IMG/VR virus record: IMGVR_UViG_3300036782_000031
Location: 1 to 54,966 of that record
Reading direction: 5' to 3' (one strand)
DNA length: 54,966 nucleotides
Source of the DNA: a virus
Taxonomy: Duplodnaviria > Caudoviricetes
In this document: piece after piece, positions 1-54,316 of the stretch
Layout of the letters: every line of letters begins with the position of its first letter
Position numbering within the stretch: the stretch's first letter is position 1
The notes under the pieces: generated by a model
Seen by the model: only the letters and a program-made list of their open reading frames with translations
Database searches by the model: none
What the model was told of the DNA's origin: nothing
Position numbers and translations under genes: made by a program

Positions 1-386
1 GAGGGGAGACACCACCTCCGCAGAGGCTCTATACGCTCGGTGCCAACCCGAGCGAGGTGCTAACTTGCTTACTTGCCCTCGGCTCGTCCGCTATGTAGTT
101 AGTCAGAGGAGAAGGCTGACGGGCCACGACCTAATCGCCTGGCGCCAGCAAAAGAACGTCACCAGGCACACCGGCCTGAATCCCACGCGGGACCCTACGT
201 TGACGCACACTGGCGACCCGCCAGCCTTCGCTCTGTTTTGCCGAGTGCCGCTGCACTTCCCAACCCCTTAGCGGACTACGGGGCGAGCGGCTCCTTGAAC
301 ACCGCCCTTAGCATGATGACCTTGGTTCCGGCCTGCTCGGCTACCGCTATTCAGTTTTCCGGGGAGCCGCGCTCCCTCGGCCTTAC
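1..386 (-). ncRNA. Candidate long structured non-coding RNA (3' part runs off the window)
   Basis: No credible ORF. Lies downstream of a leftward TATACT -10 (393-398). Nested complementary arms at 86-93/269-276, 104-108/231-235, 111-123/217-229 and 137-144/160-167; hairpins at 34-54 and 362-376. Confidence 0.55.
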
Positions 387-392
387 AACTAC

Positions 393-422
393 AGTATACC
401 CTACGCACTGCAGTTTCGCTCC
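393..422 (-). promoter_or_regulatory. Phage promoter, GGAGCG-N18-TATACT
   Basis: Same spacing and CTGCAG spacer as the copies near 5414, 5876, 10816 and 15399. Confidence 0.65.
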
Positions 423-574
423 GACAGATCTAGGAAAACTTTCTGTAACTTTGCGTAGTATACTTGACTACGAAACTGGTAACTGGCCTGTATGCGATTG
501 CAGTGGTCTAGGGCGAGTGCAGGGTCCGATCAGGCGCAGTTACCTGTGCACTTTCTACGGACCATTCCGCCTGG

Positions 575-808
575 TCAACGAGCTGCGAGTGCAGTCGCTA
601 TCCAACCGGCTGACCAAACGAGCCAGCCAGCGTCGGCCGCCCAACGCTGGCTGACCCTGCGCGCCGCATGCTTCCGCTCGTGCTCCGTCACGGGTATGGT
701 CAGGCCCGGACGGACAAGCCGCAGCGCGCGTAGGTGTAGGTTGTGGCTGACGAGCTGATGCACCAGAGGCGCACCGAGCCCGATCAGCACACAGGCGGCC
801 ACCCACAT
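575..808 (-). CDS. Small membrane protein, last gene of the traB-like operon
   Basis: 77 aa with hydrophobic N- and C-terminal segments; starts 1 nt after the upstream stop. Confidence 0.5.
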   Translation of the reverse strand: MWVAACVLIGLGAPLVHQLVSHNLHLRALRLVRPGLTIPVTEHERKHAARRVSQRWAADAGWLVWSAGWIATALAAR

Positions 809-809
809 G

Positions 810-1259
810 TCAGTGCTTCTTGGAAGCGAGGTTGCCGTCGGCCGTCCAGATCAGCTCCAGGTTGTCGTCGGCCAGCTGGTCGGCGTCCTGGGCGATGCCC
901 GCCTGGGCGCGGTCCTTGGGCTGGAACGCAGACACCGGGATGACCTGGGTCTCGTCCGCGTCCTGGACCGGCATCGGCTCGGTGTCGGTCGCCATCTGGA
1001 TCGCGTTGGCCTTGTGCTGCTTCCGGCTGGCCCAGGTGGCCCGCAGGATGCCCCGCGCGATGAACAGCACCAGCGCGGTACCGGCCGCGATGACGACAGC
1101 CCACATCGCGATCTTGAGAGCCTCGACGATGACGTTCCAGTACATGTAGAAGAAGACCGCGACGCAGACGATCGCCCCGGCCACGAACAGGGCAGGGCTG
1201 CACTGTGCCGTAGAGCACTGGCGCACCGCCCACTTCTGATAACGCTCCCACAGCTTCAT
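810..1259 (-). CDS. Two-TM membrane protein (Spd-like accessory)
   Basis: 149 aa, two hydrophobic helices, acidic C-terminus; ATGA overlap with the ATPase gene. Confidence 0.75.
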   Translation of the reverse strand: MKLWERYQKWAVRQCSTAQCSPALFVAGAIVCVAVFFYMYWNVIVEALKIAMWAVVIAAGTALVLFIARGILRATWASRKQHKANAIQMATDTEPMPVQDADETQVIPVSAFQPKDRAQAGIAQDADQLADDNLELIWTADGNLASKKH

Positions 1260-2938
1260 GCTGCAGCCCTACCTTTCCTGTTTTCGAGAGCGTAGTCGTG
1301 GAGGAACTGCGAGTCGTCGTAGAATCCCTGGACCCACGTCTGCTCTGAACCCTTAACCATACATATCCTACCTGGCCCGGTCTGGAATGACGGCGCAGGC
1401 GGACCGACGATCCTATCCCACTGTCCTTTCTTTGAGATCGACATGCCGAACACTCCGAAGGCAGCCTTCAGAGACTCACCACCGAGCGCTTTGTCGGTGA
1501 CGTCCTGGAACATCATCTCGCCTCGCATGTTGGCCTGCCGACCGAGCCGCAGGAGCGGCGCGATAGCCTCGCTCCAGATCGGCGGAGTGACCGGGCCACC
1601 GGTTGGCATCTTGAACCGCTTGTAGTAGGACTTCAGGTTGCCGCTGAGGTCGTTGCCCTCGTCCACCAGCACCCAGATGTCGTTGAAGTCCTCCGGCCGC
1701 TTCTGTCCGGTGCGGATGGCCGTGTAGCGCTTCCGGAGCATATCCTCCAGGATGTAGAACACATCCCAGATCTTGTCCATCTCGGACTCCGGGTTGTCGT
1801 AGACATGGACGCCAGGGATGCCACGCAGGTACTCGAAGCTGACCTGCTTCGTGTCGATGCAGTACAGGTCAGCCCACGGGTCGTTGTGGCAGATCTGGGC
1901 AGCCTTGACCAAGAAGCCAGTCGACTTGCCGGTGCCAGAGTCAGCCGCCCGCAGGTGCCACGGCGTATCGCCGTTGTGGCTGGTGACGTAGACGCTCTTG
2001 TCCTCCTGGACTCCGACCGCGTATTTGCCCCGAACCAGCCCTTCGATGTCCGTCAGGTAGTCCCGGAAAGTAGCGGCAGCCGGCAGCCCGCTTACAATCG
2101 GATGCCAGGTCAGCATGCGCGGGTTGGTGGTGGTGCTCCATCGGAAGCGCACCCGGCCGTCCGTGTGGGCCTCCAGCACCTCCTCCACCTGACCGCGCTG
2201 CTTGACCAGAGCCGGGTACCGATCCGGCAGCCGCAGCTCGCCGCGCTCTGGCGTGAGCCGCAGCCCGCGCTCGACCTCGGCCGGGCTCGCGCCCATCTGG
2301 TCAGCCAGCAGCGTAGCCAGCACGCCGACAGGCACCTCGGACTCCAGCTGGGGCTCCTCGGTGACGGTCAGCCTGGCCTTGTTCTCCACCGTCTGCTCGT
2401 CGTGGCTGAACACTGCCTTGGCCTTGCCGGTCATGCTGATGGCTGGCTTGCCGATCGGGTGCTTCCGGATGTGCCGACGCCGCGCCTTCCGGGTGAAGTG
2501 CACGACGAACAGGACCAGCGCGGCGCAGATCAGCCACACGATGGCGCGCAGGGTGTCAACCGGGTCGATGATGATGCCGCACCACGCCGTCAGCCAGGTA
2601 GCCACCAGAGCGTTGTTGCGGATGGCCCGCTGCCAGCGAGTGGTGGTGGTCCAGTAGACAGCCAAGCCCTCCGGCGTCGCGCGGGTCGTGTCGCCTGCAG
2701 TCTTCTTCAGCTTGGCCTCGTCGCCATAGGTGCGCTTCGGATCCAGGTGCAGCCCGGTGTGAACCTGGAACAACAGCCTGTGCATGCGACTTGGACGGCC
2801 AGGGTGGCGCCAGCCCGTGATGTCATGGGCGTAGCCGAACCCAACCGTCCACAAGGCCCAGAAGGCGTACAGGCCATAGATGACCACGAACACCACCCAG
2901 TCCTGCAGGTGGAGTGAACGCAGGAGGAGCCCGATCAT
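1256..2938 (-). CDS. Membrane-anchored FtsK/SpoIIIE (TraB-like) DNA translocase ATPase
   Basis: N-terminal TM helices; Walker A ADSGTGKST; IDTK; Walker B IWVLVDEG; LLRLGRQANM arginine-finger region; GPGR motif near the C-terminus. Confidence 0.85.
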   Translation of the reverse strand: MIGLLLRSLHLQDWVVFVVIYGLYAFWALWTVGFGYAHDITGWRHPGRPSRMHRLLFQVHTGLHLDPKRTYGDEAKLKKTAGDTTRATPEGLAVYWTTTTRWQRAIRNNALVATWLTAWCGIIIDPVDTLRAIVWLICAALVLFVVHFTRKARRRHIRKHPIGKPAISMTGKAKAVFSHDEQTVENKARLTVTEEPQLESEVPVGVLATLLADQMGASPAEVERGLRLTPERGELRLPDRYPALVKQRGQVEEVLEAHTDGRVRFRWSTTTNPRMLTWHPIVSGLPAAATFRDYLTDIEGLVRGKYAVGVQEDKSVYVTSHNGDTPWHLRAADSGTGKSTGFLVKAAQICHNDPWADLYCIDTKQVSFEYLRGIPGVHVYDNPESEMDKIWDVFYILEDMLRKRYTAIRTGQKRPEDFNDIWVLVDEGNDLSGNLKSYYKRFKMPTGGPVTPPIWSEAIAPLLRLGRQANMRGEMMFQDVTDKALGGESLKAAFGVFGMSISKKGQWDRIVGPPAPSFQTGPGRICMVKGSEQTWVQGFYDDSQFLHDYALENRKGRAAA

Positions 2939-3915
2939 AACTCGCCAGTGCCTTCCTGCTGCGCCTCGTCCGGGTGCGCCGCGTCGTAGATGTCCTTGTA
3001 CTTCTGGCTGAGCGCACCCCGGTCAGACACCGGATGGCCGTGCAGCCGCAGCCAGTCTCGCTTGTGCCGGTCGGGCGCGTGGGCGGAGCGACGCCGGGCC
3101 AGCTCGTCCTTCGTTCCTTCGTTCCCGGGCTGGGGAAGGACGGGAGGAACGTCGGGAGGAACGACCGTGGCCTGCTCGGAAGGAACGACGACCTCGGCGC
3201 TGGGAACGACGGGCTCTTGCGCCGCAGCGGATGGCGCAGCCGTGGGGTCTGGCCCTAGGGCTGGCTTGGCGGCCGGGATCGTTCGTTCCGGTCGTTCCAG
3301 GAGTGCGGGCTTCGTTCTGGCGGGCTGGGCGATCGTTTCGCCGAGACGACCAGCAAATGCGTCGGAAAGAGCGCGAGTGCGGGAACGAAGGACGCCCCGC
3401 AGCAACTTCGTGGTCTCGCCCGGGAAAAACACCCAGGAAAGGCGGCCGAAGGAAGGCAGAGCGGCCGGGTAGATGAAGCCAGCCCGCGCCAGCGCACGAC
3501 GCCTGATCCAGCGGGTCTGGAACTCAAACACCACCATCGCCAGGATCGGCAGAGACGACCACAGCGGGATAGCAGCCCGGCTCTCGTGCCCGAGGATGAC
3601 GTGCAGTGCCTGCAGGTAGGCAGACAGGATGGCGATGATGCGGACTGCCATCCGCGGACCTCCACCGCTCATGCCCTCTTCTGCGTACTTGAGCGTCAGC
3701 CCGGCCATGATGAGTGCAGAGCCGTCGAAGACGGTGCTCATGCCGATCGCGAAGATAGGCGGCACACCAAGCTTGCGTGCAACGTAGAACAGCGAGTAGC
3801 CACTGATGGCCAGGATGACGCTCAGGACGATCACCCAGAGCACGCTGTCCCAGACCGTGACTGCGGCCTTGCGGACCCTTTTGCCGATCGGAGCATCGGC
3901 GTTACCCTTGCTCAT
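2935..3915 (-). CDS. DUF2637/Spd-like 4-TM protein with Pro-rich linker and C-terminal Lsr2-like DNA-binding domain
   Basis: TM pattern S..SL..VA...G....A.....VFDG...S....LH; C-terminal RDWLRLHGHPVSDRGALSQKYKDIYDAAH resembles the Lsr2 motif REWARxxGxxVSxRGRIP. Confidence 0.75.
   Translation of the reverse strand: MSKGNADAPIGKRVRKAAVTVWDSVLWVIVLSVILAISGYSLFYVARKLGVPPIFAIGMSTVFDGSALIMAGLTLKYAEEGMSGGGPRMAVRIIAILSAYLQALHVILGHESRAAIPLWSSLPILAMVVFEFQTRWIRRRALARAGFIYPAALPSFGRLSWVFFPGETTKLLRGVLRSRTRALSDAFAGRLGETIAQPARTKPALLERPERTIPAAKPALGPDPTAAPSAAAQEPVVPSAEVVVPSEQATVVPPDVPPVLPQPGNEGTKDELARRRSAHAPDRHKRDWLRLHGHPVSDRGALSQKYKDIYDAAHPDEAQQEGTGEL
3110..3389. repeat. Cluster of eight GGAACGAM 8-mers in both orientations (clt/TRS-like)
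   Basis: Forward: 3158-65, 3182-89, 3203-10, 3382-89. Reverse: 3110-17, 3118-25, 3282-89, 3291-98. Near matches at 3146 and 3311. Confidence 0.8.
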
Positions 3916-4063
3916 GCGCTCACCTTCTTCCGGTAGGTGTTGCTGCTAGGTCCCGGTCTGTTCCGCCAGATACAGGCCGGGGCCGATATTGATCTTAAGG
4001 ATAGGCGTCCGCAGCCGTCCTGGCTACACGGCGTGGTCAGGAGCCCAGCGTATCCTTAGCTAC

Positions 4064-7112: not shown

Positions 7113-7146
7113 TTTTGCCTCTCGCCTTCGGGTCTCTTGCTCTCTG

Positions 7147-7197
7147 CCTTACGTAGGGTATAACCCCGGCCGGACTGGTAACCATACCCGGCCGGGG
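7147..7197 (-). promoter_or_regulatory. Promoter cassette GGTATGG-N19-TATACC..CGTAAGG inside an inverted repeat
   Basis: One of four similar copies (7147, 7491, 8699, 9450). Confidence 0.7.
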
Positions 7198-7469: not shown

Positions 7470-7490
7470 TTCTCGCCTTCCTGTTGACTG

Positions 7491-7531
7491 CCTTACGTCT
7501 AGTATAACGCCAGCTGACTGCAGACCATACC
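7491..7531 (-). promoter_or_regulatory. Promoter cassette GGTATGG-N18-TATACT..CGTAAGG
   Basis: Repeat copy. Confidence 0.7.
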
Positions 7532-7541
7532 GCAAAAGTGC

Positions 7542-8665: not shown

Positions 8666-8698
8666 TTCGTACTCGCCTTCTCGGGGTCTCTCGTTCTG

Positions 8699-8747
8699 CC
8701 TTACGTACAGTATAACGCCAGCGGGCTGTAATCCATACCCGCTGGCG
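8699..8747 (-). promoter_or_regulatory. Promoter cassette GGTATGG-N18-TATACT inside a 10-bp inverted repeat
   Basis: CGCCAGCGGG / CCCGCTGGCG arms. Confidence 0.7.
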
Positions 8748-8756
8748 CAACTTTCT

Positions 8757-9422: not shown

Positions 9423-9449
9423 TTTCTCGCCTTCGGGGTCTCTGTTGTT

Positions 9450-9498
9450 CCTTACGTACAGTATAACCCCGGCAGGCTGCATTCCATACCCACCGGGG
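9450..9498 (-). promoter_or_regulatory. Promoter cassette GGTATGG-N18-TATACT inside an inverted repeat
   Basis: CCCCGG / CCGGGG arms; repeat copy. Confidence 0.7.
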
Positions 9499-9518
9499 CC
9501 AACTTTCCGCAAAAACTT

Positions 9519-14713: not shown

Positions 14714-14876
14714 AAGGTATAGATCTACTGGGGCGGATAAGTAGGTTAGGGGTTAGAAGGTATATCCCCGCCTACTCTACCGTCTAAGTTCGAAAGTGCA
14801 GTACAGGAAATGAATAACCCCTGGTATAGAGGTTAGAAGGTATAGTAGGTACAGTAAGGGGGGATATACCTTCTAA
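14710..14876. repeat. TTAGAAGGTATA iteron-like repeats, candidate replication origin
   Basis: Direct copies at 14710, 14753 and 14833; inverted copy at 14865-14876; fifth copy at 12104; AT-richer than the surroundings. Confidence 0.7.
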
Positions 14877-15398: not shown

Positions 15399-15428
15399 GT
15401 AGCGCGCGCAACCGACACGCGGTATACT
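15399..15428 (+). promoter_or_regulatory. Phage promoter GTAGCG-N18-TATACT
   Basis: Same family, rightward; GAAGGCGAG at 15452-15460. Confidence 0.65.
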
Positions 15429-45537: not shown

Positions 45538-47958
45538 ATGGCGGCTATGACGGTCACAGTCACGCAAAGTGGCACGACCGACCCTGGGATGGTAACGCAG
45601 GTCCTGCTGTACTCCGGTTCGGCATCTCCTGCGTCCATCTTCAGCGGTGGCAAGACCGGCTCCAAGACGTTCAGCGCGAACGGAGCAACCCAGCTCGCCA
45701 TCACCCCCAACGCCACCGGCTCGCTCATCGTCGGCACGATGACGAACGGCATCAACACCGCGTTCACAGCCCTGGCATCCACAACATTCAAGACCAACTT
45801 CGCCGACGCCACCAACACCAACCAGCTAGGTGTCTGCGTCTCTTCCGCCACCACGACGTCGGGCACCCCGGTGACCATCGGGGCCTCGGCTCCAACTACG
45901 GCTGAAGGCCAGATCGTTCTGGCTGAGCTTCTCGCGTCCGGCTCGCTCACCGAGGACACAGCCAACGAGCCAGCAGCCGTCACGTCCACCTCAGCCACGG
46001 CCCAGACGACCGCGTCCTTCAACCCCAACGCTGGCGACCTCGTTGTCCTGCTCTCCACCACGGCGGGTGGTAGTGGCAACAGCCCAACACTGACGCCCAC
46101 CAATACGGGCGGCCTGACGTTCACTTCGCTGATCGTAGCCAACGCTCAGTTCTACGGCACAGCTCAGATCTGGGTCGCACAGATACCGGGCGGTGTGACG
46201 CCCACACCTACCTTCTTCGGCTTCAACGTTCCACCGGGCATGGCCAACCCGATGTTCTGGGAACTCAACACCACACCTCAGATCTCCAACGCGCCGTACT
46301 TCGAGCCTGCCGTCATCGGCCCCAACCCGCTGATGGCCACCGTTGACTTCGGCGTCATCACAGTCAACTGCGACGCCGACATCACCGAGACCGATCTCGC
46401 CTGCACGGTAACGTTCCCGGCTCCGACGATCAGCACGGGCGAGAACGTCACCACGACGATCCTGGCAGACTCCGTCTCCTTCCCGGCGCCAGCTGTCAAG
46501 ACCAGCTCCACGGTAACGACGTCGGCGCTGAACTGCACGGTAGCCTTCTCTGCTCCGACCATTCACGCGGGCTCTACTGTCACGCCAACGGACCTCGCCG
46601 GATCCGTCTCCTTCGCGAGTACCGCAGAGACCACAGGCGAGACGGTAACACCGACGAACCTGTCTACAACGGTCGGCTTCTCGGCTCCGACCATCACTCA
46701 CAACTCCAACGCCACGATCACGACGACCGCGTTCAGCACGTCTGTGTTGTTCTCTGAGGTCGTCAATGCGAGCGAGACGGTCGGCCCTACGGCGCTCGCC
46801 GGGTCGGTAGCCTTCCCGGCCCCCACGGAGCACGCCGGGGAGACGGTCTCGACAAGCGGGGTCGCATGCGGCGTCGCTTTCCCAGCGCCGACGGTCAACG
46901 CTAGCGAGGTCGTAACGACGACCGTGCTGGCGGGCTCCGTAGCCTTCAGCGCGCCCACGGTCAACGCGGGCGTCCTCATCGTCCCGTCTGCTGTCGGCGG
47001 TAGCGTCGCATTCAGCGCACCCAGCATCACGACCGGCAACGCCATCAGCCCGGCCTCGCTCGCCACCTCGGTCAGCTTCCCGGCCGCGTCCCACCGCACG
47101 GACGAGACAGCCACCACAGTCATCCTGGCGACCGGCGTGGTGTTCTCTGCCCCGCAGCCTAACGCGAGTGAGACCGCTACCGAGACCCTGCTCAGCACCA
47201 GCGTGGCGTTCGGCGCTGCCTCGTTCCGGGCAGACCAGATCGTCACCACCGTTGTCATGTCTTGTACCGTTGCGTTCCCGGCCGTCAGCATTCAGAGCGG
47301 CACGGCGGGCGTCGCCAACCCGACCACCTACGTCACAACCGTCGCCTTCACCGGGCCGCAGATCCACACCGAAGAGCACGCCACCACGACAGTGCTCAGT
47401 ACGGCGGTCGCCTTCTCGGCCCCAACCGTCAACGCCAGCCAGACTGTCGCCACGACAATGCTCAGCTGCACCGTTGGCTTCATCGCGTCGCAGCCGAACG
47501 CCAGCCAGACGACATCCCCGAACGCGGTGGGCGGGTCGGTCGCCTTCAGCGCGCCGGTCATCAACCAGAGCCAGACGGTTACGCCCACGGCGCTAGCAGC
47601 GTCCGTCAGCTTCAGCGCGGTGACGCCCAACGCGGGCTCCGGTGCGCATCCGACAGCGCTCGCGGCCTCTGTCTCGTTCCCGGCGTCCGTCCGGAACATC
47701 AGCCGCACAGCACAGGTTGTCCTGCTGGCGCCGACAGCCGCTACCTTCCCGCCGATCAGTACAGCGGCCGGGCTGACCATCATGCCGACGACGCTCCACA
47801 CGGCGGTGGACTTCCCGTTCTCCTTCGTGATCGACTTCATCGGCACAGTCACCTCCCAGAACTTCGGCGTGTACAGCGTCACCACCGGGCAGGGCGGAGC
47901 CACCGCCACATCCTACAACATACCTAGCGGGTCCGTCACTCAGGAGAACTTCGAATGA
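45538..47958 (+). CDS. Fibre-like repeat protein
   Basis: Globular N-terminal part, then about 20 repeats of roughly 24 aa (V.PT.L..SVAF.AP.V). Confidence 0.7.
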   Translation: MAAMTVTVTQSGTTDPGMVTQVLLYSGSASPASIFSGGKTGSKTFSANGATQLAITPNATGSLIVGTMTNGINTAFTALASTTFKTNFADATNTNQLGVCVSSATTTSGTPVTIGASAPTTAEGQIVLAELLASGSLTEDTANEPAAVTSTSATAQTTASFNPNAGDLVVLLSTTAGGSGNSPTLTPTNTGGLTFTSLIVANAQFYGTAQIWVAQIPGGVTPTPTFFGFNVPPGMANPMFWELNTTPQISNAPYFEPAVIGPNPLMATVDFGVITVNCDADITETDLACTVTFPAPTISTGENVTTTILADSVSFPAPAVKTSSTVTTSALNCTVAFSAPTIHAGSTVTPTDLAGSVSFASTAETTGETVTPTNLSTTVGFSAPTITHNSNATITTTAFSTSVLFSEVVNASETVGPTALAGSVAFPAPTEHAGETVSTSGVACGVAFPAPTVNASEVVTTTVLAGSVAFSAPTVNAGVLIVPSAVGGSVAFSAPSITTGNAISPASLATSVSFPAASHRTDETATTVILATGVVFSAPQPNASETATETLLSTSVAFGAASFRADQIVTTVVMSCTVAFPAVSIQSGTAGVANPTTYVTTVAFTGPQIHTEEHATTTVLSTAVAFSAPTVNASQTVATTMLSCTVGFIASQPNASQTTSPNAVGGSVAFSAPVINQSQTVTPTALAASVSFSAVTPNAGSGAHPTALAASVSFPASVRNISRTAQVVLLAPTAATFPPISTAAGLTIMPTTLHTAVDFPFSFVIDFIGTVTSQNFGVYSVTTGQGGATATSYNIPSGSVTQENFE

Positions 47959-50563: not shown

Positions 50564-50792
50564 GGCTCACGTCCAGACTCAGCTCATGGAGCCGAGCGTG
50601 GAACGCGCGCCAGCTGCCTTCCGTGTCGACCATCCGCTCCACGTACAGCACCGACAGCCCACCCAGGCTTTCCTGGTGGCGATGCGTCATGTGGAGCGCG
50701 AAGTCTTCTGTCCCCATGTTCTCGGCCGCCTGAACGACCGGAACTCTTTCTGCCACGTGTGTCACTTCAATCCCCGCTCTAGTCAGGATCAA
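50544..50792 (-). CDS. Hypothetical protein (start uncertain)
   Basis: ORF bridging dnaE and the next gene. Confidence 0.5.
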   Translation of the reverse strand: MILTRAGIEVTHVAERVPVVQAAENMGTEDFALHMTHRHQESLGGLSVLYVERMVDTEGSWRAFHARLHELSLDVSHDHGPA

Positions 50793-53067
50793 CGACGTAC
50801 AGCTTGTCCACCATTACCGGAGTGCCGAACCCAGCGATCCGGTTGCCGACCGCGACGACAACGTCGTGATTGACTGCGATGCTTTCGATGGTCTTCTTCA
50901 GCTTCGGGAAGGTGAACCGGTTGACACGCAGATACACTTCCTCATCAGTAACGTCGTAGCACCGGAGTGAGCAGTACTCAAGTAGCTCGGGGTGCTTCAG
51001 CGTCTTAAGGATATCCGCTTCTTCCTCGCCGGTACGCGAGCGCCGGTTCTCCACGGCGTCCTGGTAGTTGCGCTCTCTCACCATGCCCGCGTAGACGACG
51101 CGCGGACCCTTCCCATAGTTCGCTCTCGCGTTCGCCCCATAGGTTTGCTCCACGAACTCCTCGGCCACCTGGATACCGGTGTGTGTCGGGCGCGGTATGT
51201 CGTGCTGCTTTGACAGCCACGTCAGCGTAGCCTTCATCGTCCGCTCTACGCGATACAGACCGAACGGGTCATCCGCGGAGGCGAACGTCTCCATCTTCTC
51301 GGTGGTCTTCGGTCCGATGCCCGGGATGACCTGGAGGTCGGACCAGTTCTTCGGAGGCGCCAGGGCCTTCAGGTCGTCAATCCGGGTGGCTGTCTTCGCT
51401 CCGACGCCGGGTATGCTCTCCCAGCCCGCGATCAGCTGCGGCGTGCCGGTCTGGGGGTTGTCGCCTCCGCCCGCGTGCCAGCCCGTCCAGGACGACGAGC
51501 TCAGCCGGATGTTCGGCGGCTTCACGTCGATGCCGTGCCCGAGCGCATCCTTCATAAGCTTGTACTGCTGCTCGGCGTCCGACGCCTTGGCCAGAGAAGC
51601 CGCATAGAATTCCAGTGGGTAGTGTGTCTTCAGCCATGCGGTCCAGAACGCCAGCATGCTGTAGCTGATGGCGTGCGCGATGTTGAACGAGTAGGTGCCA
51701 GAGGTGACGAGCCGCTTCCATATCTTGTCCGCCAGCTTCGGGTTGATGTTCCGCTCGGCCGCGCCGTCGATGAACTGCTGATAGCTCATCTGGAAGGAGG
51801 CCTCGCCTAGCTTCTTGGATATGATGCGGCGGATCTGGCCAACCGAGAACCAGTCGAATCCACCGATCTCCTTCAGGACGCGGAGGATCTGTTCCTGGTA
51901 GATGATCTGCCCGTAGGTATCAGCGGTGACGGCATCAACCATAGGATGTAGCCGTTCGGCTTTCCGCTTTCCGTGTCGTACTTCAACGTACGCAGCAGTC
52001 TGGCCCGAGAACAGAGGACCCGGCCGGGAAAGAGCGTTGATGTCCGCGATGTGCTGGAAATGATCTGGATGAACGTCACGGTTGACGAGCCGAGTAGCAC
52101 GACCTTCAAACTGAAAGATCCCGGTGACGTCCCCTTTACGGAATACATCAATCGTCCCTTGGTCCGTGTCCGGGATAGCATATAGATCCTCCAGCGTCAG
52201 CCCAGCTAGCTCCAGGCAGCGGGCGATCATCCCCATCGTGGTGAGTCCCAGGAAGTCCAGCTTCAGCGCATCAACGTACTCAACGTCATACTTGTCGATG
52301 CTGAGGCTCCGAACGCCGTTCCGTTCGTACACGGCGCAGATGTCAGTGAGCGGCGAGTTAGCGACGATCATTCCGGCCGCGTGAATGGACATCCCTCGCA
52401 CATCGCCCTCAAGTCGGGCAGCTTTCCACAGGTCAGGGAATTCATCGAACACAGCCTTTGCGTTCGGAAACATCGCAACTGTATCCTGAAGCGAAGTGTC
52501 GAACCGGCTGTCGCCACCACTTCGCTCAATGATGAGGTTAGAGACTGTCTCCTTCGCAGCGTGCGGTATGTTGTAGACCCGAGCCACGTCGACCAAGCTG
52601 TTCTTACCCCGGTATCGAATGAAGTTCGCAACCTGTCCCACGCATTCTGGACCGTACTTGCCAGCCAGATACTCGCGAACCTCATCGCGCCGATCATCTG
52701 AGCAGTCCGTGTCAATGTCGGGCGGGTCGGCTCTTGACACATCCAGGAACCGCTCGAAAAGCATCCCCTGATAACGGTACGGGTCGATCTCGGTGATTCG
52801 TAGGAGCCACGCGACAACCGACGCTGCCACGCTACCACGGCCGGGTCCGATGGGGATCCCGTTGTCCTTGGCCCACCGGATAGCGTCGGAGGTGAAGAGG
52901 AAGAAGTCAGCAAGATCCTTCTCCAGCATGAGATGCAGTTCGTACTTGACTCGTTCGGCATACCACGCCTGCTCTTCCTTCGGCCGCGAGCCGATCTTCC
53001 GATAGCGCCAGCCCATCCGGCACCACTCGGTCAGTAGCTCCTCCGCGTTAAGCTTGCCAGTCATCAT
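50779..53067 (-). CDS. dnaE: DNA polymerase III alpha, catalytic part (lacks PHP)
   Basis: GPGRGS, FERFL, PPDIDTD, HAAG, KLDFLGL, GIFQFE, RPGPL, YQEQI, YSFN.AH. Confidence 0.95.
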   Translation of the reverse strand: MMTGKLNAEELLTEWCRMGWRYRKIGSRPKEEQAWYAERVKYELHLMLEKDLADFFLFTSDAIRWAKDNGIPIGPGRGSVAASVVAWLLRITEIDPYRYQGMLFERFLDVSRADPPDIDTDCSDDRRDEVREYLAGKYGPECVGQVANFIRYRGKNSLVDVARVYNIPHAAKETVSNLIIERSGGDSRFDTSLQDTVAMFPNAKAVFDEFPDLWKAARLEGDVRGMSIHAAGMIVANSPLTDICAVYERNGVRSLSIDKYDVEYVDALKLDFLGLTTMGMIARCLELAGLTLEDLYAIPDTDQGTIDVFRKGDVTGIFQFEGRATRLVNRDVHPDHFQHIADINALSRPGPLFSGQTAAYVEVRHGKRKAERLHPMVDAVTADTYGQIIYQEQILRVLKEIGGFDWFSVGQIRRIISKKLGEASFQMSYQQFIDGAAERNINPKLADKIWKRLVTSGTYSFNIAHAISYSMLAFWTAWLKTHYPLEFYAASLAKASDAEQQYKLMKDALGHGIDVKPPNIRLSSSSWTGWHAGGGDNPQTGTPQLIAGWESIPGVGAKTATRIDDLKALAPPKNWSDLQVIPGIGPKTTEKMETFASADDPFGLYRVERTMKATLTWLSKQHDIPRPTHTGIQVAEEFVEQTYGANARANYGKGPRVVYAGMVRERNYQDAVENRRSRTGEEEADILKTLKHPELLEYCSLRCYDVTDEEVYLRVNRFTFPKLKKTIESIAVNHDVVVAVGNRIAGFGTPVMVDKLYVVDPD

Positions 53068-53345
53068 CGTCCTCGCTTCTCAGAGCCACCCATAGCACGA
53101 CGCTGACGACGAGCGCCAAGATCGCCAACACCATCAGGCAGCTCTCGAGGTACGTCATCCCCGGGAACGTCGGGCTCTCGCATTGCGTCTTCCACACGGC
53201 GCTTGTTCTCCTCGGTCGGCTCCCGCTCGTACTGGCAGATGACGCAGTCGTCGGTGTTGCCCTCGGGCTGACCCAGGACGACCGCTGTCTTGGCGTGACC
53301 GATCAGGCTGTGAAGGGTAGCGATGTACCAGGCGATCACGTCCAT
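53064..53345 (-). CDS. Small CxxC protein between the two dnaE parts
   Basis: DDCVICQYE; overlaps both neighbours. Confidence 0.6.
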   Translation of the reverse strand: MDVIAWYIATLHSLIGHAKTAVVLGQPEGNTDDCVICQYEREPTEENKRRVEDAMREPDVPGDDVPRELPDGVGDLGARRQRRAMGGSEKRGR

Positions 53346-54316
53346 GGCTTCAGGTCCTCCTCGCTGATCGGGTAGCGGAGCCGCTCGGCCTTGGGGAGCG
53401 TGACGTTACAGCCCTCTGCGATGTACGCGCTCCGCTCGATGGCCGACCACGCCGTCCGGCCGGATAGCCCGGTCTTCTTCAGCCGGTCGGCTAGGGCCTC
53501 GTCGCTGTCGGGCAGCGTCAGCGGCACCTCATAGTTCCACTCCCGCATGGCGTCGTCAACGGACGCCTTGCCCCGGTGAACCGCGTGGAGCACAGCCTGC
53601 ATCTCACCGTCGTCCGGACGCGGGTAGTGGACGTCGCCGGTCACCACGAGCGGGACACCCGTCTCCTTCGAGATCTGCTCGTAGGCTACGTTCATCTGGC
53701 ACGTCCGCTCCAGCTCATAGAACGGCTGGCACTCTAGGTAGTAGTCGTCTCCGAAGATTCGGCTGTAGCTGTCGACCAGTTCGTAGGCTCCGTCCCAGTC
53801 GTATCCACCTTCAGGCTCAGGGATCCCTTTGCCACCCAGGAGCGTGCAAGCGAGCTGAGACCCGGAGCAGCCACTGAGCACAACGAGACCAGAGCGGAAC
53901 TCAAGGAGCGCAGCTCCGCTGACGGTGGGATGGTAATAGTAATCGAGATAGCTCTGGGTGACGATCCGGTTGAGGTTTCGGTAGCCATTGACATCCTTCG
54001 CCACGATCGTGAGATGGTTCTTGAACTGGCCCTTGGCCGGGAGGAGGTCAACCTCACCGTCCGCGCGCACCCGCATCCGCCGTTCGTCGTTCTCCTCTAG
54101 CACGGACCCGCAGTATGCCTCGAGACCAAACAGCGGCTTGATGCCCGCCTTGTTCGCGGCCTTCTCGAGCTGGAAGTGTGAGCTGACGTTGCCGTGCTCC
54201 GTCAGGGTCATTGCGGTGTAGCCCAGCTCAACGGCGCGCTCTACGTGCTTGGCCGGGGTCCCGAAGCCATCCCCGAAAGAGAACGTGCTGTGATGGTGCA
54301 GATTGACAAACCTCAT
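53336..54316 (-). CDS. dnaE: DNA polymerase III alpha N-terminal PHP domain (stand-alone)
   Basis: FVNLHHHSTFS..DG, LTEHG, GLEAY, HLT, GYRNL, LSGC, DVHY. Confidence 0.9.
   Translation of the reverse strand: MRFVNLHHHSTFSFGDGFGTPAKHVERAVELGYTAMTLTEHGNVSSHFQLEKAANKAGIKPLFGLEAYCGSVLEENDERRMRVRADGEVDLLPAKGQFKNHLTIVAKDVNGYRNLNRIVTQSYLDYYYHPTVSGAALLEFRSGLVVLSGCSGSQLACTLLGGKGIPEPEGGYDWDGAYELVDSYSRIFGDDYYLECQPFYELERTCQMNVAYEQISKETGVPLVVTGDVHYPRPDDGEMQAVLHAVHRGKASVDDAMREWNYEVPLTLPDSDEALADRLKKTGLSGRTAWSAIERSAYIAEGCNVTLPKAERLRYPISEEDLKPWT

What the first reader, a model, noticed from the sequence alone, without database searches (positions are those of the whole stretch)
1..386. Large structured ncRNA candidate next to the transfer operon
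Seen: at least 385 nt without a credible ORF, behind its own phage-type promoter. Nested long-range helices: GTCCGCTA 86-93 with 269-276; 104-108 with 231-235; a 13-bp helix 111-123 with 217-229; and 137-144 with 160-167. The apparent mismatches become G-U pairs only on the minus strand, which agrees with the promoter direction. A local hairpin (210-224) competes with the 13-bp helix. GAAAACTGAATAG (347-359, minus) near the 5' end resembles rRNA-leader boxA/processing-stalk sequences. I do not recognise tRNA, tmRNA, RNase P or intron cores. Inference: an undescribed large phage RNA.
Basis: partly seen in the sequence, partly recalled or inferred. Interest (0 to 1): 0.75.

Follow-up and report, generated by a model that had tools for sequence, protein, structure and literature searches.

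The report
New large structured phage RNA
The left end of this soil actinobacterial phage contig holds the first ~385 bases of a conserved, heavily folded non-coding RNA of at least 600 bases that matches no described RNA family and whose job is still unknown.

Summary
Window 1-386 (minus strand) lies behind a promoter word that recurs in this phage group, has no credible ORF, matches no Rfam family, and folds better than shuffles (z -2.4). Two distant IMG/VR phage contigs (L013, L014) carry homologues. They share invariant blocks of 20-29 nt separated by variable stretches. The helices between the blocks keep pairing through compensatory changes: 10 of 31 core pairs changed on both sides, 94.6% of cells paired against 37-59% when partners are slid. 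In L013 and L014 the non-coding RNA runs on for about 600 and 1,250 nt and has a second conserved 3' domain, so the window copy is cut by the contig end. An antisense ORF that stays open across the conserved blocks fails codon-position and GC3 tests. The element is rare and accessory: 3 full or partial copies plus one near-identical fragment, and it is missing from two near-complete relatives. It always sits after a phage promoter, upstream of a DUF6011 early gene. My best reading is a new family of large phage RNA that acts as a folded RNA. A cis-acting leader is the main rival. There are no expression data.

The parts
393..420 (-). Phage-group promoter word: AGCG (-35-like), 18-nt spacer, G+TATACT (-10-like)
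   Evidence: 3 sites in the window against 0.11 expected. The same word precedes the RNA in L013 and L014 and precedes genes in related loci.
384..386 (-). Predicted transcription start
   Evidence: Inferred from the 7-nt distance to the -10 word at 398..393. Not measured.
359..380 (-). P1 hairpin at the 5' end
   Evidence: RNAalifold pairs it in all 3 sequences, with one pair changed on both sides. The stem sequence differs in L013 and is longer in L014.
343..359 (-). Conserved block S1 (contains GAAAACUGAAUAG), mostly unpaired
   Evidence: Identical in the window and L013; 4 changes in L014.
237..342 (-). Variable peripheral domain.
   Evidence: About 50 nt of it are missing in L013 and it is replaced by other sequence in L014.
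105..236 (-). Conserved core junction. Helices: Pa 217-228/112-123; Pb 208-215/143-150; Pd 200-205/157-162; small hairpin 134-138/126-130. The 29-nt block 121-149 is invariant except at 3 positions.
   Evidence: 94.6% of cells paired, 10 of 31 pairs changed on both sides, 0 of 500 shuffles as high. Covariance model R1 scores 112.4 bits here, against at most 21.7 bits for chance hits.
1..104 (-). Start of the next domain, cut by the contig end
   Evidence: L013 and L014 continue here with a domain closed by a UGACCG/CGGUCA helix and then a conserved 3' domain. A 388-nt contig of run X3 covers 1..157 and runs about 193 nt past position 1.

Best explanation
Window 386..1 (minus strand) is the 5' part of a multi-domain structured RNA of at least 600 nt, cut off by the contig end. 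It belongs to an accessory cassette in a group of soil phages of Actinomycetota. A phage-group promoter (AGCG-N18-GTATACT) starts transcription near 386. The RNA forms a 5' hairpin, then a conserved unpaired block, a variable domain, and a junction of three covarying helices around a nearly invariant 29-nt strand. In the full-length homologues two further domains follow. I take the folded RNA itself to be the product: a stand-alone RNA whose invariant junction is the site that binds a partner or does the chemistry, made early together with a small downstream ORF. Shown here: conservation, strand-specific covariation, the promoter word, absence of coding signal, absence from Rfam. Inferred: transcription, the start site, action in trans, early timing.
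For: Homologues were found with nhmmer in L013 (E 9.7e-15) and L014 (E 1.4e-07) out of 13 related loci. Core structure: 31 pairs, 94.6% of cells paired against 36.6-59.1% when partners are slid, 10 pairs changed on both sides against 0-3 when slid, and 0 of 500 shuffles reach any of the five measures. The wider 5' region has 47 pairs, 10 of them compensatory. The 3' domain shared by L013 and L014 has 51 pairs, 13 compensatory. Full-length L013 RNA folds to -325 kcal/mol, z -5.41, on the sense strand and to -290.2, z -3.32, on the antisense strand. No Rfam match at E<=1 for the window or either homologue. Promoter word enriched. In L013 and L014 a second copy of the promoter word stands between the cassette and the next gene, a DUF6011 gene, so the RNA plus small ORF form a unit of their own. 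A 600-1,250-nt RNA that tolerates a ~645-nt insertion in L014 looks like a large ncRNA, not a leader for an 81-108-aa ORF.
Against: There are only 3 sequences plus one near-identical fragment, so no R-scape-grade statistics are possible. The structure tested was drawn from these same sequences. No RNA data: no RNA run was listed that holds it. No canonical terminator separates the RNA from the small ORF in L013 or L014, which would also fit a leader. In the window the RNA sits where relatives L002 and L003 have promoter followed directly by the DUF6011 gene, which again would fit a leader. No partner, ligand or activity is known.
Confidence: 0.5

Rival explanations
1. It is a very long cis-acting leader (a riboswitch-like, protein-binding or antitermination element) that controls the small ORF and perhaps the DUF6011 early genes downstream on the same transcript.
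For: It lies directly after a promoter and on the same strand as the next ORF in L013 and L014. No canonical terminator was found between the RNA and that ORF. In the window it occupies the place where L002 and L003 have a short leader before the DUF6011 gene. The invariant junction could be a binding pocket.
Against: At 600-1,250 nt it is far longer than cis-regulators as I know them (my knowledge, not a call). L014 carries a ~645-nt insertion between two conserved domains. A second promoter word precedes the DUF6011 gene in L013 and L014, so only an 81-108-aa ORF would be under its control. The sequence between the 3' domain and the start codon is not conserved.
Confidence: 0.25
2. It is an RNA-primed replication origin. 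Like ColE1 RNA II, or the non-coding RNA regions needed for replication of extrachromosomal cluster A mycobacteriophage prophages, the transcript would prime or open the origin.
For: Non-coding, promoter-driven regions of about 400-500 bp serve as prophage origins in actinobacteriophages (PMC7157519: abstract, sections 7, 10, 15 and passages read). The element lies in the early/replication part of the genome.
Against: Relatives estimated 97% and 98% complete lack it, as do the 11 other related or closest records searched whole. The window encodes its own primase-polymerase/helicase and Pol III alpha. No ParB, ParA/CbiA or tyrosine integrase was found in the 55 kb held. blastn found no similar sequence in 50,697 phage records.
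Confidence: 0.07
3. The conserved blocks belong to a protein gene on the opposite strand (window 2..271 +, L013 3581..3276 -, L014 2491..1757 -). That frame reads GHDLIAW, NTGDP and TAIQFSG in all three sequences.
For: The frame is open in all three. It stays in register across the three blocks in L013 and L014, and across two of them in the window. GC at its third codon position is slightly raised: 0.68 and 0.71.
Against: Differences are spread evenly over codon positions: [26,23,30], [39,38,46], [43,37,40]. Real genes of the same loci show a 1.4-1.8-fold excess at position 3. GC3 is 0.60-0.71 against 0.76-0.93 in real genes. The 29-nt block has no synonymous change; its 3 variable positions all change the amino acid in that frame and, on the RNA, sit in pairs that stay paired or in a hairpin loop. 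In the window the frame is broken by a stop and a shift before the third block. The L013 frame found no relative among 5.8 billion proteins. The ORF would run backwards through a conserved promoter.
Confidence: 0.03
4. It is a conserved DNA-level site (protein-binding or recombination region) or a leftover without RNA function, and the folds are incidental.
For: There is no expression evidence. The sample is tiny. GC-rich sequence folds well anyway.
Against: The compensatory changes include several G-U pairs that would be A-C mismatches on the other strand. The sense strand is 35 kcal/mol more stable than the antisense strand in L013. A conserved promoter faces into the element.
Confidence: 0.05

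Closest known systems
GOLLD and ROOL (large ornate RNAs of phages and prophages)
   Same: Encoded by phages. Several hundred nt or more. Many helices. Conserved domains joined by variable or insertable regions. Function unknown. (Properties taken from passages of bioRxiv 10.1101/2024.12.08.627333.)
   Different: No match to any Rfam model at E<=1. Hosts are Actinomycetota-like, judged from the terminase relatives. It is not next to tRNA genes: none in the window, and one tRNA-Met 11-12 kb away in L013 and L014. Multimer or cage formation cannot be tested here.
Non-coding RNA origins of extrachromosomal cluster A mycobacteriophage prophages (Wetzel et al. 2020, PMC7157519)
   Same: An actinobacteriophage region of some hundreds of bases without a real ORF, driven by a promoter, where spurious ORFs on the other strand overlap the RNA (sections 10, 15 read).
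   Different: Those regions lie beside parABS and are needed for prophage maintenance. Here no ParA/ParB was found, the element is missing from near-complete relatives, and blastn found no sequence likeness to any of 50,697 phage records.
ColE1 RNA II
   Same: A promoter-driven, highly folded RNA of about 550 nt (as described in the introduction of PMC7157519, and from my own knowledge).
   Different: No antisense RNA I-like unit was seen, and no origin evidence. The phage has its own replication proteins.
Processive antitermination / rRNA-leader boxA-type elements
   Same: It sits directly after a promoter at the head of a run of genes on the same strand.
   Different: It is much larger. No Rfam leader or antitermination family matched. 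The likeness of the S1 word to boxA rests on recall only and was not tested.

Membership tests
Any Rfam 15 family (incl. GOLLD, ROOL, OLE, RNase P, tmRNA, group I/II introns, 6S, riboswitches) | Match to the family's covariance model | tested here: not met
   cmscan with permissive filters, E<=1. Window 1-3000: only an unrelated sub-threshold hit at 2141-2219. L015 and L016, covering the whole L013 RNA and the 5' part of the L014 RNA: none. L014 1800-3500: none.
tRNA / tmRNA | Detected by ARAGORN | tested here: not met
   0 genes in the whole window. None inside the RNA in L013 or L014.
GOLLD/ROOL-like large phage RNAs (as a kind, not a homology family) | Phage-encoded, over 500 nt, many helices supported by covariation | tested here: met
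   About 600 nt non-coding in L013 and about 1,250 nt in L014. Compensatory pairs: 10 of 31, 10 of 47 and 13 of 51. The window copy is cut at 386 nt.
GOLLD/ROOL-like large phage RNAs (as a kind) | Frequent position beside tRNA islands | tested here: not met
   No tRNA in the window. A single tRNA-Met lies 11-12 kb downstream in L013 and L014.
GOLLD/ROOL-like large phage RNAs (as a kind) | RNA-only homo-oligomeric assembly | not testable with these tools
   Needs cryo-EM or native gels of the transcribed RNA.
RNA-based prophage origin (cluster A parABS phages) | Adjacent parABS partition cassette | tested here: not met
   PF02195 (ParB_N) and PF01656 (CbiA/ParA): no match in the window, and the controls rang. 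The record is estimated only 58% complete.
RNA-based prophage origin (cluster A parABS phages) | [quoted passage not shown] | not testable with these tools
   Needs a cloning/transformation assay.
Protein-coding gene (antisense frame) | Excess of third-position change and raised GC3, as in neighbouring genes | tested here: not met
   Flat codon-position differences and GC3 of 0.60-0.71, against a 1.4-1.8-fold position-3 excess and GC3 of 0.76-0.93 in control genes. No protein relatives.
boxA / rRNA-leader antitermination element | boxA consensus next to a processing stalk, with NusB/NusE binding | not tested
No tool here scores boxA. No Rfam leader family matched.

The most novel reading that the evidence does not exclude
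This is the founding example of a new class of giant ornate RNA carried by phages of soil Actinomycetota. It would be a counterpart of GOLLD/ROOL, unrelated to them in sequence and fold: a stand-alone RNA of 600-1,250 nt whose invariant junction is a catalytic or assembly site (an RNA-only machine or cage, or a decoy for a host factor), moved between phages as a promoter-RNA-small-ORF cassette.
Probability: 0.3. Interest if true: 0.8.

Novelty: new variant of a known kind. Interest (0 to 1): 0.62.

Why it matters
Large, elaborately folded bacterial and phage RNAs outside the classic set are few, and each has raised new questions; GOLLD, ROOL and OLE were recently shown to form RNA-only assemblies (passages of bioRxiv 10.1101/2024.12.08.627333). 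As far as my searches show, none of this kind has been described from phages of high-GC Actinomycetota. This candidate has a defined promoter, a compact invariant core that can be mutated, and a full-length 600-nt version (L013) short enough to transcribe and to probe or image. It also illustrates a trap in GC-rich genomes: the opposite strand carries a long open frame that stays in register across the conserved blocks and could be annotated as a hypothetical protein, as the mycobacteriophage origin paper also noted for its RNAs (PMC7157519, section 10).

Tried and rejected
More homologues:
- Exact-pattern scans of IMG/VR with the core 20-mer, the S1 block, a two-block pattern and a 3'-domain pattern returned only the L013 and L014 contigs. 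One search returned only L013's contig, although L014 carries the word; I cannot explain that miss.
- The one metagenome scan gave one hit, L017, which lies inside a coding region with no neighbouring conservation.
- The genome-contig scan with an 18-specified-base core gave 18 hits in unrelated taxa. All are chance: nhmmer matched only the word itself and the covariance model scored at most 21.7 bits.
- Model R1 found nothing in 5 actinobacterial and other genomes, nor in 151 genomes of the family of a Streptomyces genome. That means not found in those searched, not absent.
- blastn against phages and plasmids: no match. Short conserved blocks would not reach those E-value limits.
- Searches through neighbouring proteins. 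The FtsK-like protein alone found nothing in viral contigs or cultured phages; its alignment gave 13 loci. The small-ORF alignments found only the same two contigs. Its profile found 5 representatives among 1.84 billion proteins, but their DNA could not be fetched.

Expression and extension:
- No RNA holder was listed for the stretch.
- Laying contigs of 3 soil DNA runs could not extend the window. The X1 contig, which may be the source of this DNA, stops at position 3. An X3 contig runs past position 1, but its letters are not shown.
- The uncovered part 158-324 in X3 is not evidence of anything.

Ideas considered and dropped:
- Physical genome end at position 1: the X3 contig runs on past it.
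- An internal terminator at 175..161: it is part of the extended Pb/Pd stem.
- Long-range pairing between S1, S2 and the 3' domain: judged by eye only, not convincing.
- A weak R1 hit inside the L013 3' domain (19.2 bits, E 0.16) and one in G162 (13 bits, E 0.23): chance level.

Tools and papers:
- The look-up of encoding contigs was stated closed and was not called.
- Literature searches gave no description of this RNA. Supplements of the two papers I used were not opened and might hold alignments relevant to the comparison.

Full report
WHAT THE WINDOW IS. The window is a whole IMG/VR virus record of 54,966 bp. It is linear, with no end repeats, and is estimated 58% complete. Its large terminase is closest to Thermobifida phage P1312 (60% aa identity) and Streptomyces phage Dagobah (55%). 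It carries a primase-polymerase/helicase, a Pol III alpha split into two ORFs, and a lysin. It is therefore a phage of a high-GC actinobacterium from soil; the runs that hold it are soil metagenomes. On the minus strand, genes of 326, 560 and 149 aa end at position 810. The 560-aa one is FtsK/SpoIIIE-like: it has 81 metagenomic relatives, four of which carry PF01580. The finding lies further along the same strand, at the contig end.

CHECK OF THE OBSERVATION.
- The RNA-sense strand has no ORF above 46 aa.
- ARAGORN finds nothing in the window.
- Rfam at E<=1 finds nothing in 1-386.
- The minus strand folds to -176.7 kcal/mol against -161.0 +/- 6.5 for 100 dinucleotide shuffles (z -2.44, 1 shuffle as good). 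The plus strand gives z -1.49.
- The promoter is real as a recurring word. AGCG-N15-18-GTATAVT occurs 3 times in the window against 0.11 expected. It precedes genes and this RNA in related loci.

HOMOLOGUES. blastn against 50,697 phage records found nothing. I therefore went through the neighbouring FtsK-like protein: 81 relatives, an alignment, and 13 IMG/VR loci. nhmmer with window 810..1 as query hit L013:3277-3532 (E 9.7e-15) and L014:2019-2292 (E 1.4e-07). Two further hits were not the RNA: one in L002 falls on a small conserved ORF, and one in L003 covers only the promoter and the first bases of the transcript. The three copies share the promoter, a 5' hairpin, the block with GAAAACUGAAUAG, the word GGGUCGCC(A/G)GUGU, and a 29-nt block invariant except at 3 positions. 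Between these lie stretches that differ in sequence and length. The proteins of these phages are only 44-46% identical to the window's, so identity over 20-29 nt points to selection on the nucleotide sequence itself.

STRUCTURE. RNAalifold on the 5' 200-300 nt predicts 47 pairs, 10 of which are kept through changes on both sides. I then wrote down a core structure of four helices. In window coordinates they are Pa 217-228/112-123, Pb 208-215/143-150, Pd 200-205/157-162, and a small invariant hairpin 134-138/126-130. I counted it on the three sequences:
- 94.6% of cells pair, against 36.6-59.1% when the 3' partners are slid by 1-3 columns.
- 10 of 31 pairs have changes on both sides, against 0-3 when slid.
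- None of 500 shuffles reaches any of the five measures.
- Several pairs are G-U, so the structure belongs to this strand.

Caveat: with three sequences, and a structure drawn from them, these numbers are indicative and not a formal test. Helices 86-93/269-276 and 137-144/160-167 have no counterpart in the homologues, and the latter overlaps Pb, Pd and the small hairpin.

FULL LENGTH. In L013 the stretch without a supported gene runs from 3242 to 3951. In L014 it runs from 1958 to 3287. After the core both have a domain closed by an invariant UGACCG/CGGUCA helix. Both then have a 3' domain (L013 3732-3860, L014 3035-3156) with a long hairpin in which five consecutive pairs are changed on both sides; 13 of 51 predicted pairs are compensatory. 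L014 has about 645 extra non-coding bases between these two domains, with no Rfam match. The 615-nt L013 RNA folds to -325 kcal/mol (z -5.41, 20 shuffles); its reverse complement reaches -290.2 (z -3.32). The window holds only the 5' hairpin, the variable domain, the core, and about 100 nt of the next domain. A 388-nt contig of an independent soil run (X3) matches window 1..157 with 5 differences, none listed within the invariant block, and continues about 193 nt beyond position 1. So the break is an assembly end and not a genome end. This contig is also a fourth, closely related, partial copy.

THE ANTISENSE ORF. The opposite strand is open in all three copies. It reads the conserved blocks as GHDLIAW, NTGDP and TAIQFSG, in one frame in L013 and L014. 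I took this rival seriously.
- Differences between the copies are spread evenly over codon positions ([26,23,30], [39,38,46], [43,37,40]). The FtsK-like gene and the small ORF of the same loci show a 1.4-1.8-fold excess at position 3.
- GC3 is 0.60-0.71 against 0.76-0.93.
- The 29-nt block has no synonymous change. Its three variable positions all alter the amino acid, yet on the RNA they sit in pairs that stay paired or in a hairpin loop.
- In the window the frame breaks before the third block.
- A search of 5.8 billion proteins found no relative.

I reject it.

CONTEXT. In L002 and L003 the promoter word after the FtsK-like operon leads straight into a DUF6011 gene (phrog_636). In L013 and L014 the order is promoter, RNA, small ORF (81 or 108 aa, coding by codon tests, no Pfam or PHROG family), a second promoter word, then the DUF6011 gene. 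In the window the RNA follows the promoter at the L003-like place, and the rest is off the contig. No homologue of the small ORF or of the DUF6011 gene is in the window. The RNA is thus part of an accessory cassette that sits in front of the DUF6011 early gene. Model R1 found it in 2 of 15 related or closest records searched whole. It did not find it in two relatives estimated 97% and 98% complete, nor in P1312 or Dagobah.

COMPARISON WITH KNOWN THINGS. No Rfam family matches. In kind it is closest to GOLLD and ROOL: large, ornate, phage-borne, of unknown function (passages read). It differs in having no homology to them, a different host group, and no neighbouring tRNA island. The RNA-based prophage origins of cluster A mycobacteriophages (PMC7157519) are the nearest actinophage precedent for a promoter-driven non-coding region. 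However, there is no parABS here, the element is dispensable in relatives, and the phage has its own replication proteins.

HOW IT MOST LIKELY WORKS.
- That this is a real, selected, strand-specific RNA structure: about 0.85-0.9.
- That the RNA acts as a stand-alone folded product, with the invariant junction as its active or binding site: 0.5. The reasons are its size, its modular domains, its tolerance of a large insertion, and its own promoter with a second promoter for the next gene.
- A cis-acting leader for the small ORF: 0.25. There is no terminator between them.
- RNA-primed origin 0.07; DNA-level site or non-functional leftover 0.05; antisense protein 0.03; the remainder something not thought of.

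Nothing here shows transcription. No RNA run holding the stretch was listed.

LIMITS. The sample is three full or partial copies plus one fragment. Supplements were not opened.

Noticed in passing
window 575-808 (-): A 77-aa ORF starts at the ATGTGA overlap with the stop of the 149-aa gene. Its DNA is conserved in L002:5657-5842 (nhmmer E 2.1e-09). It has no Pfam or PHROG family. It is probably a real small gene that closes the FtsK-like operon.
   Followed up: partly
window 451-463 (+) and 392-406 (-): There are two inverted copies of TGCGTAG(GG)TATACT about 45 bp apart. The left-facing one is the RNA promoter's -10 region. The right-facing one lacks the AGCG word upstream and would transcribe antisense into the end of the FtsK-like operon.
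   Followed up: no
window 7135-7170, 7479-7540, 8687-8748, 9438-9499 (+): Four copies of a 36-56-nt repeat contain CCTTACGTA..GTATAAC. This looks like a second promoter-like family in the early region, related in its -10 part to the RNA promoter.
   Followed up: partly
window 1256-2938 (-): A 560-aa protein with a GTGKS Walker A motif has 81 metagenomic relatives, many on contigs of 50-70 kb. PF01580 (FtsK_SpoIIIE) is precomputed for four of them, but the window's own protein gets no Pfam or PHROG hit, and tblastn finds nothing in 50,697 cultured phage records.
   Followed up: partly
window 50779-53067 and 53336-54316 (-): DNA polymerase III alpha is split into two ORFs: a PHP-domain protein of 326 aa, and a 762-aa protein with the NTPase, finger and HhH parts.
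   Followed up: no
L014 2390-3035: About 645 nt of extra non-coding sequence lie between two conserved domains of the L014 RNA. They are absent from L013 and have no Rfam match. This could be an inserted element or an extra RNA domain.
   Followed up: partly
window 14753-14876 and 15401-15428 (+): A 34-nt inverted repeat (85% complementary, 56 nt apart) lies upstream of another copy of the promoter word. In L013 and L014 the matching promoter copies (14293, 14195) are followed about 500 nt later by a tRNA-Met, which the window lacks.
   Followed up: no
window 46406-47579 (+): Eight copies of a 43-nt unit, spaced at multiples of 66 nt, lie inside the 806-aa ORF 45538-47958. This is a repeated 22-aa module in a probable tail or fibre protein.
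   Followed up: no
window 3; Logan contig of run X1: An independent assembly of the likely source run ends within 2 nt of the IMG/VR contig end, although a related contig in run X3 reads through. Something at this point breaks assemblies, for example strain variation in the RNA's variable parts.
   Followed up: partly
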